This document shows positions 6,001 to 12,000 of a stretch of DNA of 64,000 nt, one piece after another. Position 1 is the first letter of the stretch, and every line of letters starts with the position of its first letter. The DNA is from Gekko japonicus (taxonomy: Eukaryota): positions 99,343 to 163,342 of the forward strand of contig NW_015172610.1 in the NCBI RefSeq assembly GCF_001447785.1, written 5' to 3'. The position numbers are program-made.

Positions 6001-9000
6001 GTGATCCCCACTGAAATACATGGGGTTCATACAGCAGGAGTGCAGTGCAGACCTCACCTTAAATGCTTTGCCTGTATTTGTTCATCTGTAAACTTGATCT
6101 AAATTACCCCTTATTGTTGTGGAAATCAAGGACACCATTAAAATGTATTAAATGTATTAGAATATCTAAAATGCCTTTGGTAGCTGGTAAATTATCTGTG
6201 TTCTCATTTGGCATTTCTAATAAATATAATAAGCATGATGATTAATCTAATCACCTAGTTGATAAGAAGCGGTAAACAATCCAGAATCCAAATGCATGCT
6301 TTTGTCTTTTCTAGAAATTCAATGTGGGATTTGATATCTATGCTGCCCATTGGTACCCTCTGGCAGAACACTAGAGAGTGCCTCATTTCAGCTTTCTTTT
6401 TCTTTCAGATATAATTGTTGAAATGCTCACACACAAGCTTCATCAAGAAAGCTAGCAAAAACACAAACACCCACACCCTGCAAGTCACCATTCATTGATC
6501 TAAAATTCATGGCAGACATGTCAGTTATCTTTAAATACACTGTATGGTGTCTGTGTGTTTTTTCTGTGTTAATATGCAAGTTAATACGGAAAAAGAACCT
6601 TGTCTATTTCCCCTCCCCCCAAATCCATTGGGATCATTCTTCTGGCTGTTTATAAATGAAAGACTATTCAACCTGACACAACTTACTCCTCATATGTGAA
6701 GAAATCCCAAACCTCCCCATAATCACACAGCTAATGTTAATGATCATAAATGGATACTCCCATTACATTTTTAATTAGCTAAAATTTCCTTTGATGTAGC
6801 TTTGTGAATGGTGTTCATAATCGTTATTGAAACGCACATGTGGCTCTTCTGGAAATAAAAGGAGTTTACTGGATGTCTGTGCCCTGTGGGAAGATACTGT
6901 CTTTTATCTGAAATATTGGTGAATTCTTCTTGAAGACCAGTAGAAGTTCAGAAAGCTGCAGAGAAAGAGGATAAGTGCATGTCTGCTTTATAGTGCTTGT
7001 GAAACTTTCAATGCAGTCCTAAAATCCTGACGCTAGTGCATCACCGACACTGTTGCTAGCATCACTAGACAGTATTCTATGCCTGCTCTTCCAAGAGCAT
7101 ACCTGTGCATATAGTTTGGGGGGGGGGGTAATGTCCTGAACAAGGAGGAGAGGTCATAGCAAGTGAACAGTAGCAAGTAGTGTGGTGCTGCCAATAACCC
7201 CATGAAGGGCAGATAGAAACATGACATCAGGCTACCACTGCCCAAATGAAGAACATGCCAAGGACAGCAATAAACGAAACACAGCCCTGGGTGCTCCTGG
7301 GTGCTCTGCAGATGAGGGTTTGAGTCTTTCCTGCAAAAAAAGTTCCTTTTTGCTAGGCATACACACAAGGAGCAAATCATGACCACTCCAGCTACAGCAT
7401 CCATCCACTTCTAATAGGTCATTCAGCAAAGGCAATGCCTATAGAATACCCAAGACCTCTCCTGTCCAAAAGTTCAGGTCTTGGGGTGATCACAGTTTAG
7501 AAGCACCAGCCTTTTGGCAGGTGATGGGAATGCAGACACTGAGGGTATGCACAACTGCACATCCATAAAAGACATTCCTGTTAATTCCCCAGTTCCTCAC
7601 TGGGAAAAGACACTGGTGTCAAACTAAGACTATGGGTACCTATGGGAAATATTGACAAGAATACATGCCTCACTTTATAGAAAGCAGCCATGTTAATCTC
7701 TTGAGCAAAATAGACTCATGAAAGTTCATGCTGAAATAAATGTTGTTAGTCTGTAAGGTGCTACGGGGCTTCTGTTTTATTCACCTGTAAACACACACAA
7801 AAACAGAAACAAAGCTTGTGAGGTCTACTGAAGGAGAAGACCAAGCTTCAATTGACCAACAAAACTAAAGTCTTGTTTGAATTAAATATATTGAAATATA
7901 TTAAGAACCATGCAGTCACAACATACAGGTTTTATATACAATAAGAGCATTGCTGTAGGAAGCGCCTATACTTAATTTTTTTAACCCCCGAAGGGATATT
8001 TTTATTATTTTTTCATAAAACTACATAACTACAAAGAAATATATGGGGGGACTACAACTATGGATAAAGAAAAGATACCCATACTAACTAAAAACCCAAG
8101 AGAGGGAGATCACATCCATGTTAAACTAAATAATAGTAATTAAAGTGTTAGTAACATAATATACTTGTAAAGTTCTTGTTTTTCACAGCTTCTATGTTAG
8201 TATGTTAGTTATTATGAGAGAACTTTCTGAGCATCTTCTTTACTTCAAAAGGCGATTTTCAAAGTCCTTCTGCCCTTACTTTGGTTTTCTATCTCTAAAA
8301 TCATATACAGCTTTCATTGCTCCCGCACCCGTTTCAACCACAGAGTCCTCATCCATTCCAGAGGCGGCAGAGTCACTTCATTTGGTTTCTTCATCTTTGG
8401 ATTCTTCCCCCAATCCCAGCTGATGTCTCAGGAATTCCTTGGCTTTAAAGATGGAGTCAATCTTCTCTCTTTTATTGTTGATATTAAAGATGACACCTTC
8501 GGGGATCGCCCAACGGTACTGAATCACATTAGTTTGAAGAAAAGAGGTTAAGTCCTTATAGCTTTTCCTCTTTTGACGAATTTCAAATGGAATGTCTTTT
8601 AAAGTCTTAATGATTGTATTCCCCAATTTCAGTGGAGTTGCTGACGTTGCCTTTAATATAGCATCTCTGGTCTGTCTTCTTGCAAATCTGACCACAATCT
8701 CTCCAGGCAGACTATTTTTTAAAATATAATTGGCGTAAGCCCGATAGGCAGTCTCCATATCTTTTACTATTTCATCCGCTGGTAAGCCTGTTACTGGAGC
8801 AATAATCTCGCCCAGAGTCTTCTTCAGATCTTCTTTTTCAGTTTCAGGAACTCCCTGGAATCTGAGAATAATGTTGGCCTTTTCCATTTGCAGCTGCAAC
8901 AGATGGTTTTCTTGGAGGTTTTGTTTTGTTTCCACGTCTCCTATTCTTTTCTTCATTTTCTTGTTTGCGGTGTCCATCTCTGTGATTTTCTCAGTCACAT

Positions 9001-12000
9001 GCTCCACTTTCTTCTCCATTTCTGCCAGCTGGCGCTGCTGTAGAGTGAAGTTTTGGTTTAGCAAGGTCAGTTGCTGGTTAATACCATTGAGTTGCTCCAT
9101 CATCGGCTTGAGCATATCTGCTAACATGTTCATGATGTCTGCTCCCTCTTCCGGTTTTGGGCTCTGACTGCCCGGTGCTTTCGCTTTTAACTTTCCTCGG
9201 GAAGCTGCCATTTTACAGCTTTGTTTACAATTTTAAACTGCTTCACAGGGGCTCGAAAAACTTGTCACTTCACTATCGGCACTCAAGTAAGTCTCTCAAA
9301 ATAAACTCGCTGTTTATTTCCTCCCTTTCCCCTTCGATACATTTACCTGTGTCCCTCTTTGCGCTCCACTTTTCCCACGGGGGGGATTCATTTTTTAAAA
9401 TAGACTGTTTACTTAGAACTCACGTTCATTGTTGGTCATATCTCTGACCTCGCTCACATCATTCGTTATTCCGCTCGATCTCCCACGCTTGTCCCAGTCG
9501 AATTAGCTTGTGCCAGGAGGCCACACAATGGCAGAACTGTCAGGGCAGAAGGAAGCCTCGATTCTCCGGCATCAAGCCGTCGAAGAGGCTAACTCTCAAA
9601 AGCCCTCTGGCCTGGAGCCTATCACAAAGGCTCCATGGGGGTGCCACTTGAGGTAACACCCCTCCATGCCGCTGGTGTGCTAATCTCTCCCCCAAGGTCT
9701 GAGGAGAGCGACCGCCATCGCCAATCCACAAACCCAAAGCTCCTATACTTAATTGAGAAACATTGGGTTTATGGTCTGGTACCGTTTCATTAAATCTTTA
9801 GCAGCACACAGCTCATACTTGGCACATATTTTCTGCAGGCCCAGATTTCACAAAAAGTCAAATTCAAATCACTATCCACAGTCTTTTGTTAACTGCAACC
9901 CCCCCCCCAATCCAGAAGTTGTGAGGAGCTGGTCAAAGTAAGAAGGTAAGCTCTGAAGTAGCGACCTGGTTGTTGTGACTTTCTTCTTTTTAATAAAATT
10001 AGATGTTTTAAAATGCAGGAGTCATGTTCTTTCTTTCTTTCTTACAAAAGGAAGAGTTTATAAACCCTTTTCAGCCCTTCCAACTGGGGCTGGAGACATA
10101 ATGGAAGTAGTGGAAGTAGCGCTGGGGGCGTGAAAAGTGGAAGCACAAGACTTAGGCCTGCTATTGTTTTGAAGGACATAATGTACGGATCTTTCAAGAT
10201 CTTACACAGGCTAAATAAGAAGCTATGTAACTGAAATTACAGTTTCTCTAAAGAGAAACACAACTACAGATGTGACTTTCCTTTTAAACTTACATTTAGA
10301 TAGAGGACAGTGGTGCAGAATAAAAGAGAAAGGTGACAAAGCAGAATCTAAACGCTTTGAAACATTGGTGGCAAAAGCACAGCAAAGAGGTGAGGATGAA
10401 GAATAAGTGCAGAATAGCAATGAAAAACAGCATAGAGGTACTAAAAAGTGAGAGGAAAGAAGGATGAGAGAAATCAGTCAAAGTTCCTGCCTCACAAGGT
10501 GTTCTTCAAGGATTTAAAAAGGAGTTAGGTTACAAAAATATATACAATCTGGCTGACTCTGTTGAGGAAGAAAAATAAAAATCAATTTGGAAAGGTGGAC
10601 AATTCAAGGAGTTGAAGTAGGACTGCCAGGTCCCTCCTGGCAACCAGTTGGGGATGAAGGGGGACTTACCAGGAGCGGGAAGGAAACCCAGCCAACATTG
10701 CAGCAACATGTCTACGTCACTTCTGAAGTGACCCAGACGTGATGTCATCATGCAACAATGTCAGGGCAATGCTCTGGTATTTGGGGAAAAACTCTATGGT
10801 AAATTTGGCCTCTACTATAGAGTTTTTGCCCAAATACCAGAGCATTGCCCGATGTCGCTGACATGATGACATCAATTTGGGGTCACGTCGGAAGTGACAT
10901 AGACTCATCATTGCCTCAACTGGGCCTCACTCTATTTCCAGGTAAGTCCCCCCATCTGCCAGCTGATCTGCAGTGGTGTGGTAAGGTCTGGTGGCAGGGG
11001 ACTCCAACCTCCACTGGGGGGGGGGAATCTGGAAATACTAAATTGAAGGAAGAGATGGGAACAGGGAAAGGATGATGAAAAGGAAATGATGGAGAAGAAA
11101 TGCAGAGTTATTTAACATATTTTCTGATAGACAATATGTTAAATACAAGTGGGGGTTTTCCCCAGCCCAACTCATGTCTAACGTGTGACCCAATACTTGC
11201 CTTAAAAATAGGGGGGGGGGGATAATCATGTCCTGGACAGACACATGAAACCAGCAGTGAAACAAACAGCCCTCACCCACTGACCTTTTCTTTTAGTGAA
11301 AGCACATGGGATGGAAGAGAGGAATGATGAAGCCACTCCTGCTGCTTATGACACACTTAGGAGTCTATCCCTTCTCCCCATTATTTTAAAGGTGAGTTCT
11401 GGATCACACATTAAACAGGAGTTGGGTTGGGATTTTACCAAACTCATATTGCATTTAACTTATCATCTAATCAGACCCAAAGACAATAAATGGAAAAGGA
11501 GGACGCAAAGAAGCTCAGAGACAAATTGCAGCAGTTCAGTACCAAACTGCAGGGAAACCATTATGCGAAAAGACCCTTTGAATGTTGTACTATATAAAGG
11601 GCTCCTAGAACATTAGGGAAACAATTCCACTCCAGTGTATTCCCTGTTGTGCCAATTTTCTACATGCAAGGATTTTTAAAATACAAGCAATAATTATAAT
11701 ATGATCCCCACCTGCAGTCTGGAGAGGTACAGTTCATTTTACAAGCTCAAAGCTCTGCAACCTTATTCCCTCTGCATTCTGCTGTACGTACAGACTATGG
11801 GTGTGCATTTGGCTTTGCCAAATGGAATAAATAGCACCTAAATACCTTATCTGTATTTTTGGGGTATGTATTCAGTTGAATCAGACTCTCTAATGGGGCT
11901 GTAGGGTACAATGCAGAGATCGTGCCACCACGGTGCAACTCCAGAGAAGGGGTTTAAACTTTTTAACCCCCTTCTCCACTTCCCCAGCCATCCCACCTTG

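What the first reader, a model, noticed from the sequence alone, without database searches (positions are those of the whole stretch)
7965..9754. ORF1-only L1-derived retrotransposon family (HAL1/half-L1-like), three copies within 34 kb
Seen: a TSD-bounded 1.76-kb unit of 5' UTR, L1-type ORF1p, ~300-nt 3' UTR and poly(A). All three copies (2632, 7978, 36114 ends) terminate at the same 3' point right after this UTR, so ORF2 was absent from the mobilised RNA rather than deleted afterwards. Established: half-L1 (HAL1) elements that keep only ORF1 and borrow ORF2p in trans are a known class. Inference: this is an abundant squamate family of that architecture, possibly of independent origin and uncatalogued; it supplies its own RNA chaperone while parasitising L1.
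Basis: partly seen in the sequence, partly recalled or inferred. Interest (0 to 1): 0.75.

Follow-up and report, generated by a model that had tools for sequence, protein, structure and literature searches.

The report
ORF1-only half-L1 retrotransposon family
A 1.76-kb jumping gene that keeps only the RNA-binding gene of an L1 element, and so must borrow the copying enzyme from complete L1s, occurs three times in this reptile-like window; this element type is already known from mammals, so the find is solid but not surprising.

Summary
Window 7978-9741 (minus strand, 1764 bp) lies between perfect 13-bp target-site duplications. It reads 530-nt CpG-rich 5'UTR, L1-type ORF1, 293-nt 3'UTR, then a short A-run. 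It has no endonuclease or reverse-transcriptase coding.

Two further independent insertions share the same junction from ORF1 stop through 3'UTR to A-run:
- 34747-36114 (+) is 5'-truncated.
- 2632-3239 (-) is 5'-inverted, lies between 15-bp duplications, and has twin-priming geometry.

Together these are the three classic outcomes of L1-type target-primed reverse transcription.

The protein matches solved human and mouse L1 ORF1p (profile E = 2e-15). Every homologue that carries an organism name is from a squamate.

Copies 1 and 2 differ mainly at third codon positions (27/24/80; dN/dS 0.15, dS 0.53). They therefore come from two long-separated source lineages that both kept ORF1 under selection.

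All three copies are dead. The "intact" 277-aa ORF ends at a premature TGA; the ancestral ORF had 311 codons.

Best reading: a HAL1-like non-autonomous L1 derivative mobilised in trans by L1 ORF2p, arising independently of mammalian HAL1.

Not testable here: genome-wide copy number, Dfam/Repbase status, the partner L1, and whether copies arise from ORF1-only masters or repeatedly from a deleted or spliced L1 RNA. I rate it a new member of a known kind, of moderate interest.

The parts
7965..7977 (.). Target-site duplication of copy 1, 3' side (CCTATACTTAATT on + strand)
   Evidence: Perfect 13-bp match with 9742-9754.
7978..7982 (-). A-run (tail) of copy 1: 5 A, or 7 if the first two bases of the duplication are counted
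   Evidence: Sequence. All three copies end here in the alignment.
7983..8275 (-). 3'UTR of copy 1 (293 nt, GC 31%). It ends in a small GC hairpin and has AATAAA 29 nt from the end.
   Evidence: Stops in all frames; the longest open stretches are 20 and 26 codons, with no Pfam match. It differs from copy 2 at 44 of 285 sites, against 26 of 83 fourfold sites (Fisher p = 0.002). Hairpin. AATAAA.
8276..8377 (-). In-frame continuation of ORF1 behind the premature TGA: 33 codons plus the ancestral TAA at 8278-8276
   Evidence: Translation. Copies 2 and 3 have TCA at the TGA. P0151 aligns through it to residue 302 of 305.
8378..9211 (-). ORF1 of copy 1: 277 codons plus TGA. L1-type ORF1p with coiled coil, RRM and CTD.
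   Evidence: Heptad register: 20 of 25 a/d positions hydrophobic in residues 25-112; one RhxxhE motif at residues 89-94. dN/dS against copy 2 is 0.15.
9212..9741 (-). 5'UTR of copy 1 (530 nt, GC 49%, CpG o/e 0.68 against 0.25 for the window)
   Evidence: The 5' end is confirmed by the duplication and by the inverted piece of copy 3, which reaches within 14 nt of it.
9713..9729 (-). GTG-N8-ATGGCG at element positions 13-29. This is the 3' part of the 5'-terminal consensus published for Anolis L1 clade 1.
   Evidence: The only exact match in the window. Consensus from a passage of PMC5381506.
9742..9754 (.). Target-site duplication of copy 1, 5' side
34747..36114 (+). Copy 2. It is 5'-truncated, with 391 nt of the 5'UTR missing. 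ORF1 runs from ATG 34885 to TAA 35812-35814, broken by a 1-nt and a 2-nt deletion plus an in-frame 3-nt deletion. 3'UTR, then A-run 36108-36114 (7 A). No clear target-site duplication.
2617..2631 (.). Target-site duplication of copy 3, 3' side (GGACACTCTACATAT on + strand)
   Evidence: Perfect 15-bp match with 3240-3254.
2632..3132 (-). Copy 3, 3' segment: the last ~200 nt of ORF1, the 3'UTR and a 6-A run. It belongs to the same subfamily as copy 2 (89-92% identical).
3133..3239 (+). Copy 3, inverted 5' segment. It corresponds to positions ~15-120 of the 5'UTR of copy 1 (window 9728-9622) in the opposite orientation. The end nearer the RNA 5' terminus faces the junction.
   Evidence: This is twin-priming geometry, and the insertion lies inside one pair of duplications.
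3240..3254 (.). Target-site duplication of copy 3, 5' side

Best explanation
This is a non-autonomous, ORF1-only derivative of a squamate L1, with the 'half-L1' (HAL1-like) architecture.

Shown:
- A discrete ~1.76-kb unit consists of an L1-like 5'UTR, an L1-type ORF1 (ancestrally 311 codons), a 293-nt 3'UTR and a short A-run.
- It was inserted at least three times independently without any ORF2.
- Copies 1 and 2 descend from two source lineages that diverged under strong purifying selection on ORF1p.

Inferred:
- The unit is transcribed from an internal promoter in its CpG-rich 5'UTR.
- Its RNA is translated into ORF1p, which coats that RNA in cis as a coiled-coil multimer.
- Endonuclease and reverse transcriptase (ORF2p) are taken in trans from autonomous L1s of the same genome. 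They nick an A/T-rich target and prime on the A-run.

The three copies in the window are dead relics.
For: Architecture:
- 13-bp and 15-bp perfect duplications flank copies 1 and 3.
- The ORF1 stop / 3'UTR / A-run end is the same in 3 of 3 copies.
- The 3'UTR has stops in all frames and no Pfam match.
- No RT or EN domain appears in the 150 longest of 204 stop-to-stop ORFs of the window.
- tblastn with 151 proteins, two of which carry endonuclease parts, hit only the two ORF1-bearing copies and one zinc-finger-like stretch.

L1 identity:
- PDB L1ORF1p matches at E = 1.7e-4 with the single sequence and 2e-15 with the profile.
- 440 relatives at E <= 1e-3.
- Of 20 relatives looked up, 9 carry an organism name. 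All 9 are squamate, and two are named 'L1 transposable element RRM domain-containing protein'.
- 12 of 44 relatives scanned match Pfam Transposase_22 at E <= 0.01, 3 of them above the cut-off. 2 of 44 carry an endonuclease-family match behind the ORF1-like part.
- Heptad pattern and an RhxxhE motif.
- ORF1 length, 3'UTR length and GC fall within the ranges published for Anolis L1 (Table 2 of PMC5381506).
- The 5' terminus carries GTG-N8-ATGGCG where the Anolis clade 1 consensus has it.

Mobilisation:
- Copy 3 has an inverted 5' piece inside a single pair of duplications. Inverted, truncated L1s flanked by duplications are what twin priming gives (abstract of PMC2837659).

Selection:
- Differences between copies 1 and 2 by codon position are 27/24/80 (chi-square p = 1e-10).
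- dN/dS is 0.15 and dS is 0.53 over 308 codons.
- The control pair, copies 2 and 3 of one subfamily, gives 2/8/7.
Against: - Only three copies in one window were seen. No genome-wide count was possible.
- No autonomous L1 lies in the window, so the partner is unknown.
- None of the three copies has an intact ancestral ORF, so present activity is not shown.
- The tails are very short (5-7 A). AATAAA is present in 1 of 3 copies.
- Copy 2 has no recognisable duplication.
- The window protein's own Pfam Transposase_22 score is below the curated cut-off (15.0 against 22.4 bits). Its 3-D fold could not be predicted.
- Selection on ORF1 would look the same if the copies were made again and again from shortened RNAs of autonomous L1s.
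- The relative conservation of the UTRs is also a published property of autonomous lizard L1s (PMC5381506 passage). It is therefore no special mark of a parasite.
Confidence: 0.75

Rival explanations
1. There is no self-sustaining ORF1-only lineage. Autonomous L1 families of this genome repeatedly produce a shortened RNA lacking ORF2, by splicing or internal deletion. Each copy is a retroposed product of that RNA, comparable to spliced integrated L1 copies in humans (recalled, not read here).
For: The same junction in all copies and purifying selection on ORF1 are both expected under this reading. The 5' terminus and dimensions are those of lizard L1.
Against: - Two source lineages separated by dS of about 0.5 show the same junction. 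This needs either conserved splice sites or one old origin.
- The sequence just behind the ORF1 stop shows no obvious exon-junction signature (inspection; weak).
- Among the best 150 of 440 relatives in a library of 1.84 billion representatives, the proteins longer than 500 aa (P0021, P0071, P0101, P0129) are at most 33% identical. The only relative above 37% is a 305-aa protein.
- L1 proteins are poorly represented in annotated proteomes, so this absence counts for little.
Confidence: 0.15
2. The copies are processed pseudogenes of a host gene domesticated from L1 ORF1, comparable to mammalian L1TD1.
For: The unit is intronless, has an A-run and is flanked by duplications. ORF1 has been under purifying selection. 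A domesticated ORF1-derived gene exists in mammals (PMC4161310, abstract and passage).
Against: - Non-synonymous divergence caps neutral decay of copies 1 and 2 together at about 8%, yet dS is 0.53. One gene cannot accumulate that many synonymous changes in the time its retrocopies decay by 8%. Two diverged functional sources must have coexisted.
- Three copies in 64 kb is close to the 4 copies each of the two largest SINE-like families in the window. That is far above what gene retrocopies usually reach.
- The 5' terminus carries an L1-type motif.
Confidence: 0.04
3. The unit depends on a LINE of another clade (CR1, L2, RTE/Bov-B), recognised through its 3'UTR hairpin, and not on L1.
For: A small GC hairpin sits directly before the A-run in 3 of 3 copies. 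The 3'UTR is more conserved than fourfold sites. The tails are short and uniform.
Against: - The end is an A-run and not a microsatellite-like tail.
- Duplications of 13 and 15 bp and a twin-priming inversion are L1 hallmarks.
- The hairpin is not more stable than shuffled sequence in 2 of 3 copies (z = -0.07, -0.04, -2.49).
- The tail habits of the other clades are recalled, not tested here.
Confidence: 0.04
4. ORF2 was deleted after the insertion of one ordinary L1, and the locus was then copied by segmental duplication.
For: None beyond the shared junction.
Against: The three copies have different flanks, orientations, duplications and 5' structures. No similarity extends beyond the units.
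Confidence: 0.01

Closest known systems
Mammalian HAL1 (half-L1) families
   Same: Both are non-autonomous L1 derivatives that encode only ORF1p, carry a poly(A) end and target-site duplications, and depend on the RT/EN of full-length L1. Sources: passages of PMC5753468, PMC5322556 and PMC13756887. Architecture and inferred mechanism are the same.
   Different: - Host and origin differ. The protein's nearest relatives are squamate ORF1ps, and it pairs with an unnamed 305-aa protein at 50% identity.
- In the papers I could read, HAL1 is reported only from mammals.
- The tails here are 5-7 A.
- Two source lineages diverged by dS of about 0.5 share the architecture.
- The primary paper (Bao and Jurka 2010) is not held and was not read.
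Autonomous L1 of lizards (Anolis L1 clade 1, Boissinot and Sookdeo 2016)
   Same: - ORF1 is 936 nt with the stop, against a published range of 762-1125.
- The 3'UTR is 293 nt at GC 31%, against published 194-570 nt and 33%.
- The ORF is A-rich (37% A).
- The 5'UTR is CpG-rich, and GTG-N8-ATGGCG sits near the 5' terminus.
- The UTRs are conserved relative to the ORF.
Sources.
   Different: There is no ORF2 (about 3.7 kb) and no inter-ORF region. The 5'UTR is 530 nt against 792-1465 nt in clade 1. AATAAA is seen in only 1 of 3 copies, whereas the paper states that all L1s end with it.
Drosophila HeT-A (telomeric Jockey-clade element encoding Gag only)
   Same: It is a non-LTR element that keeps only its first ORF and relies on a relative's reverse transcriptase. 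This is recalled. An 'ORF1-only' preprint on Drosophila telomeric elements, 10.1101/2025.06.09.658640, appeared in the search listing and was not read.
   Different: It belongs to a different clade with a different ORF1 type, and it targets telomeres. It is an analogy of architecture only.
L1TD1 (host gene derived from L1 ORF1)
   Same: It is an L1 ORF1-derived coding sequence kept without ORF2 (PMC4161310).
   Different: L1TD1 is a single-copy host gene. Here there are several dispersed insertions with duplications, derived from at least two diverged sources.

Membership tests
L1-type (type II) ORF1p | N-terminal coiled coil | tested here: met
   In residues 25-112, 20 of 25 a/d positions are hydrophobic in one register, against 38% hydrophobic overall. 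One RhxxhE motif lies at residues 89-94. The profile also matches the L1 ORF1 coiled-coil entry 6fia at E = 1.3e-3.
L1-type (type II) ORF1p | Central RRM followed by the C-terminal domain, in that order | tested here: met
   One alignment covers query residues 63-242 against human L1ORF1p chain residues 9-185 (E = 1.7e-4). The profile of 71 relatives gives 2ykp 2.1e-15, mouse 2ldy 6.3e-14 and the RRM-only entry 2w7a 6.1e-10. This is sequence evidence only.
L1-type (type II) ORF1p | Pfam Transposase_22 (L1 RBD-like) above the curated cut-off | tested here: not met
   The window protein scores 15.0 bits against a cut-off of 22.4 (E = 0.031). Among 44 relatives scanned, 12 match at E <= 0.01 and 3 exceed the cut-off. 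The model is built mainly on mammalian sequences, so I take this as divergence and not exclusion.
L1-type (type II) ORF1p | Three-dimensional fold and trimer | not testable with these tools
HAL1-like (ORF1-only L1 derivative) as an architectural class | No ORF2 between ORF1 and the 3' end in independently inserted copies | tested here: met
   Met in 3 of 3 copies. There is no open stretch above 26 codons and no Pfam match in the 3'UTR.
HAL1-like (ORF1-only L1 derivative) as an architectural class | A-tail and target-site duplications of L1 type | tested here: met
   A-runs of 5-7 in 3 of 3 copies. Perfect duplications of 13 and 15 bp in 2 of 3 copies, none recognisable in copy 2. The targets begin with A/T-rich bases (AATTAA, ATATGT). 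With n = 2 this is compatible with, but no proof of, an L1-like cleavage preference.
HAL1-like (ORF1-only L1 derivative) as an architectural class | Amplified as a family | tested here: inconclusive
   Three copies from two subfamilies lie in 64 kb. The genome-wide number could not be counted.
HAL1-like (ORF1-only L1 derivative) as an architectural class | Mobilised by L1 ORF2p supplied in trans | not testable with these tools
   Inferred from the insertion structures, including the twin-priming inversion. No partner was found in the window.
Mammalian HAL1 lineages (Repbase HAL1, HAL1b and others) | Descent from mammalian L1 or HAL1 sequences | not tested
   No HAL1 sequence was at hand. All 9 relatives with an organism name are squamate, and the protein sits inside a 24-row clade with gecko and snake ORF1ps (SH-aLRT 99). 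I therefore do not file it under the mammalian families.
Processed pseudogenes of a host gene | All copies trace to one evolving source gene | tested here: not met
   dS of 0.53 with pN of 0.076 between copies 1 and 2 requires two coexisting functional sources.

The most novel reading that the evidence does not exclude
Squamates harbour an old, independently evolved ORF1-only L1 lineage that has persisted as a parasite of autonomous L1s.

Features that fit this reading:
- It has split into coexisting subfamilies (dS of about 0.5).
- It has a 50%-identical relative of the same length and C-terminal motif in another data set.
- ORF1p has been kept under strong purifying selection throughout.
- Its local density is close to that of SINEs.

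If so, half-L1s would be stable evolutionary lineages and not short-lived accidents. They would offer a natural system for asking why a non-autonomous element needs its own ORF1p.
Probability: 0.3. Interest if true: 0.6.

Novelty: new member of a known kind. Interest (0 to 1): 0.4.

Why it matters
Half-L1 elements are documented in mammals, where L1 evolves as a single lineage. A squamate counterpart would show that the same reduction happens in genomes where many deep L1 lineages coexist.

Here the ORF1-only form itself appears in two long-diverged subfamilies with dN/dS of 0.15. That bears on an open point of L1 biology: what ORF1p contributes when ORF2p is taken in trans.

It also matters practically. 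A 1.76-kb coding repeat at this density will be mis-annotated as genes. Its relatives in public proteomes carry names such as 'apolipoprotein A-IV-like', 'myosin-6-like' and 'golgin subfamily A member 3-like'.

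Tried and rejected
Searches and tools that gave nothing:
- Word-indexed protein search with the window ORF1p found nothing. With P0001 it found only P0001 itself. The exhaustive search found 440 relatives, so these negatives say nothing about novelty.
- Rfam: nothing significant on the element (best E = 0.097) and no match at gathering score on the whole window. No tRNA. The 5'UTR is therefore not visibly derived from a known small RNA.
- Pfam on 13 open stretches of both UTRs found no ORF2 remnant.
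- nhmmer with the three-copy profile found no further, more diverged copies.
- The 3'-terminal hairpin as a recognition element is not supported as special. Its folding energy is ordinary in 2 of 3 copies.
- Bao and Jurka 2010 (PMC2923044) is not held.
- Pasquesi et al. 2018 (PMC6050309) has no occurrence of ORF1, non-autonomous, nonautonomous, 'L1 element' or truncated.

Steps not available or not applicable:
- Structure prediction, fold search, complex prediction (ORF1p trimer) and the protein atlas were not available, so fold and oligomer state stayed unchecked.
- Collections of eukaryotic contigs were not on hand. Copy number, the partner L1 and the contigs behind P0001/P0151 therefore stayed unchecked.
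- Supplementary files of PMC5381506 (Anolis L1 family structures) could bear on the parent family and were not seen.

Readings rejected:
- Segmental duplication, because flanks and duplications differ.
- A single one-off deletion, because there are three independent insertions.
- Retrocopies of one host gene, by the dS argument.

Full report
**What is there**

On the minus strand, window 7978-9741 is a 1764-bp unit bounded by a perfect 13-bp direct repeat at 7965-7977 and 9742-9754. In sense orientation it reads:
- a 530-nt 5'UTR (GC 49%, CpG observed/expected 0.68 against 0.25 for the window);
- an ORF of 277 codons ending in TGA (9211->8378);
- 33 further in-frame codons up to a TAA at 8278-8276;
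- a 293-nt AT-rich 3'UTR;
- an A-run of 5 A, or 7 with the first bases of the repeat.

The window holds one N run (44329-44661). It was left alone.

**Other copies**

BLASTN and a profile search with nhmmer find exactly two more copies.

Copy 2 (34747-36114, plus strand):
- It is 83.5% identical to copy 1 over 1383 columns.
- It lacks the first 391 nt of the 5'UTR.
- Its ORF is broken by a 1-nt and a 2-nt deletion.
- It ends in 7 A.
- It has no recognisable target-site duplication.

Copy 3 (2632-3239, minus strand):
- It lies between a perfect 15-bp repeat at 2617-2631 and 3240-3254.
- It consists of the last ~500 nt of the element (end of ORF1, 3'UTR, 6 A).
- Joined to that is a 107-bp piece of the extreme 5'UTR in the opposite orientation.
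- The end of the inverted piece nearest the RNA 5' terminus faces the internal junction. The other end abuts the upstream duplication.

[quoted passage not shown] The three copies are thus one full-length, one 5'-truncated and one 5'-inverted insertion. These are the three categories named for L1-mediated insertions (abstract of PMC2912911).

Flanks, orientations and duplications all differ, and no similarity extends beyond the units. The insertions are therefore independent.

All three copies share the same ORF1 end, 3'UTR and terminal point. The inverted piece of copy 3 reaches within 14 nt of the 5' end of copy 1. The unit is therefore a discrete RNA of about 1.76 kb that never contained an ORF2.

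**No second ORF**
- The 3'UTR has stops in every frame. The longest open stretches are 20 and 26 codons, and neither they nor the 5'UTR stretches match any Pfam family.
- I scanned the 150 longest of the 204 stop-to-stop ORFs of at least 70 codons in the window. None matches a reverse transcriptase or endonuclease.
- tblastn with 151 proteins, including two that carry endonuclease parts, hits only the two ORF1-bearing copies and one zinc-finger-like stretch.

**The protein**
- Against PDB sequences, the 277-aa product matches human L1ORF1p (2ykp/2yko) at E = 1.7e-4. It does so in one alignment covering the end of the coiled coil, the RRM and the C-terminal domain.
- A profile of it with 70 relatives gives 2.1e-15 for 2ykp, 6.3e-14 for mouse ORF1p (2ldy) and 6.1e-10 for the isolated RRM (2w7a).
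- Residues 25-112 keep one heptad register with 20 of 25 a/d positions hydrophobic. They contain an RhxxhE motif at 89-94, shared with the nearest relative.
- The nearly invariant R215 of the family aligns with the first arginine of the human ARREW stretch. From memory, that is the arginine pair whose mutation abolishes human L1 retrotransposition.
- The protein's own Pfam Transposase_22 score is below the curated cut-off (15.0 against 22.4 bits). Of 44 relatives scanned, 12 match at E <= 0.01 and 3 pass the cut-off.

**Relatives**
- The exhaustive search of 1.84 billion representatives gives 440 hits at E <= 1e-3.
- Of 20 hits looked up, 9 carry an organism name, and all are squamates: Gekko (2), Sphaerodactylus, Varanus, Pituophis, Pantherophis, Pseudonaja, Micrurus and Vipera. 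Two are named 'L1 transposable element RRM domain-containing protein'.
- Two of 44 scanned carry an endonuclease-family match behind the ORF1-like part, as expected for gene models laid over autonomous L1s. P0021 is below the cut-off and P0129 is at it.
- The best hit, P0001, is an unnamed 305-aa protein on a 1540-nt contig. It is 50% identical, and its near-twin P0151 aligns through the TGA of copy 1 to its own residue 302.
- Copies 2 and 3 have TCA at that codon. The ancestral ORF therefore had 311 codons, and the 'intact' ORF of copy 1 is truncated by a point mutation.
- In a quick maximum-likelihood tree of 71 rows, the window protein and P0001 form a pair (SH-aLRT 100) on a long stem. The pair sits inside a 24-row clade (99) that also holds gecko and snake ORF1ps. 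The root is arbitrary and most rows are unnamed.

**Selection and age**
- Between copies 1 and 2 the ORF differs at 27, 24 and 80 first, second and third codon positions (chi-square p = 1e-10).
- Nei-Gojobori over 308 codons gives pN 0.076, pS 0.380, dN 0.080, dS 0.529 and dN/dS 0.15.
- As a control, copies 2 and 3, which belong to one subfamily (89-92% identical), differ at 2, 8 and 7 positions in the 67 shared codons. That is the flat pattern of decay after insertion.
- Neutral decay of both copies together cannot exceed the non-synonymous divergence of about 8%. Most of the synonymous divergence therefore arose in functional source lineages.
- It follows that two such lineages coexisted, both with the ORF1-only layout. 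This excludes retrocopies of a single host gene.
- It also means the copies here are old and dead. One stop in 311 codons is about what a few per cent of decay gives.
- The 3'UTR differs at 44 of 285 sites against 26 of 83 fourfold-degenerate sites (Fisher p = 0.002). The 5'UTR differs at 28 of 137 sites (p = 0.08). [quoted passage not shown]

**Likeness to lizard L1**

Table 2 of PMC5381506 (section 7) gives for Anolis L1 clade 1 an ORF1 of 762-1125 nt and a 3'UTR of 194-570 nt at GC 33%.
- Here ORF1 is 936 nt and the 3'UTR is 293 nt at 31%.
- The 5'UTR (530 nt) is shorter than in clade 1 (792-1465 nt).
- The same paper gives GACTTCCGGTG-N8-ATGGCG as the clade 1 5'-terminal consensus. The element has GTG-N8-ATGGCG at its positions 13-29, the only exact match in the window. 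One-mismatch matches are at chance level (9 found, 6.25 expected).
- From memory, ATGGCG is the core of a YY1 site, as at the start of human L1.
- The paper states that all L1s end with AATAAA and poly(A). Here AATAAA is present in copy 1 only and the tails are 5-7 A, which I cannot explain.

**Mechanism**

Shown:
- The RNA unit.
- Its repeated insertion without ORF2.
- L1-type insertion structures.
- Long-term selection on ORF1p.

Inferred:
- Transcription from the 5'UTR.
- Cis-coating by its own ORF1p multimer.
- Capture of ORF2p from autonomous L1s.
- Nicking at A/T-rich targets. The duplications begin AATTAA and ATATGT, so with n = 2 this is only compatible with an L1-like preference.
- Priming on the A-run.

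**Main rival**

Autonomous L1s may keep producing a shortened RNA that is retroposed, with no ORF1-only master copies. The window cannot decide this. The shared junction in two deeply diverged lineages, and the absence of any long protein above 33% identity among the best 150 hits, lean against it only weakly.

**What is known**

HAL1 is described as a non-autonomous L1 derivative that:
- encodes only ORF1p and arose several times in mammals (PMC5753468 passages);
- has about 2,100 copies in human, poly(A) and duplications, and depends on full-length L1 (PMC5322556 passage);
- is found throughout mammals (PMC13756887 passage).

The primary paper is not held. Searches of the held library gave the following:
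- HAL1 with Anolis: 2 papers.
- HAL1 with reptil-: 6 papers, 5 listed.
- HAL1 with squamat-: 3 papers, 2 listed.
- HAL1 with lizard/snake terms: no listed paper held HAL1.

None reports a reptilian half-L1. The chameleon paper's hit is a lamp model, and the review's passage concerns rat. Dfam and Repbase could not be searched, so 'uncatalogued' is open.

**Verdict**

It is a new member of a known kind. Abundance is only suggested: 3 copies in 64 kb, against 4 copies each for the two commonest SINE-like families of the window.

**Context**

Exon 1 of a poly(A)-binding-protein gene lies at about 59.05-59.26 kb.

Noticed in passing
window 59041-59475 (-): An ORF whose last ~60 residues match the N-terminus of poly(A)-binding protein 1 (PDB 4f02 at E = 8e-36 and 1cvj at 1e-34, chain residues 1-61; Pfam RRM_1 at 2e-10). 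It looks like exon 1 of a PABPC1-like gene on the minus strand, preceded by a serine-coding simple repeat in this frame.
   Followed up: partly
window 4340-4689, 28698-29056, 49480-49839, 54325-54678: Four copies of a ~350-bp repeat, 91-94% identical. One end looks tRNA-like and the other is a short (TTTACC)-like repeat. It is probably a SINE using a non-L1 partner. ARAGORN and Rfam report nothing.
   Followed up: partly
window 39236-39517, 41836-42126, 51505-51801, 61001-61278: Four copies of a ~285-bp repeat, 82-92% identical, with a tRNA-like end and a (GAA)n-like tail. It is a second SINE-like family.
   Followed up: partly
window 10710-10904, 19529-19709, 37725-38100, 48025-48138: Stretches that match their own reverse complement (69-81% over 120-393 bp). 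They may be hairpin-forming or MITE-like elements.
   Followed up: no
window 26726-27507: A tandem duplication with a period of about 390 bp (79% identity over 426 columns) in the most GC-rich part of the window.
   Followed up: no
window 55321-55485 (+): A 55-residue stretch is 40% identical to the zinc-finger region of a Varanus protein annotated as PRDM9 (P0071; tblastn E = 1e-6).
   Followed up: no
window 7983-8000, 36094-36107, 2641-2658: A 3-5-bp GC hairpin with a 4-nt loop lies directly before the A-run in all three copies. The A-runs are uniformly short (5-7 A), and AATAAA is present in only one copy. How the 3' end of the RNA is made and recognised is unexplained.
   Followed up: partly
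proteins P0002, P0009, P0013, P0021, P0023, P0071 (public records): L1 ORF1p-like proteins in annotated squamate proteomes carry misleading names: apolipoprotein A-IV-like, myosin-6-like, golgin A3-like, a ubiquitin-conjugating enzyme isoform, and PRDM9. Repeat-derived ORFs have been annotated as genes or fused into gene models.
   Followed up: no
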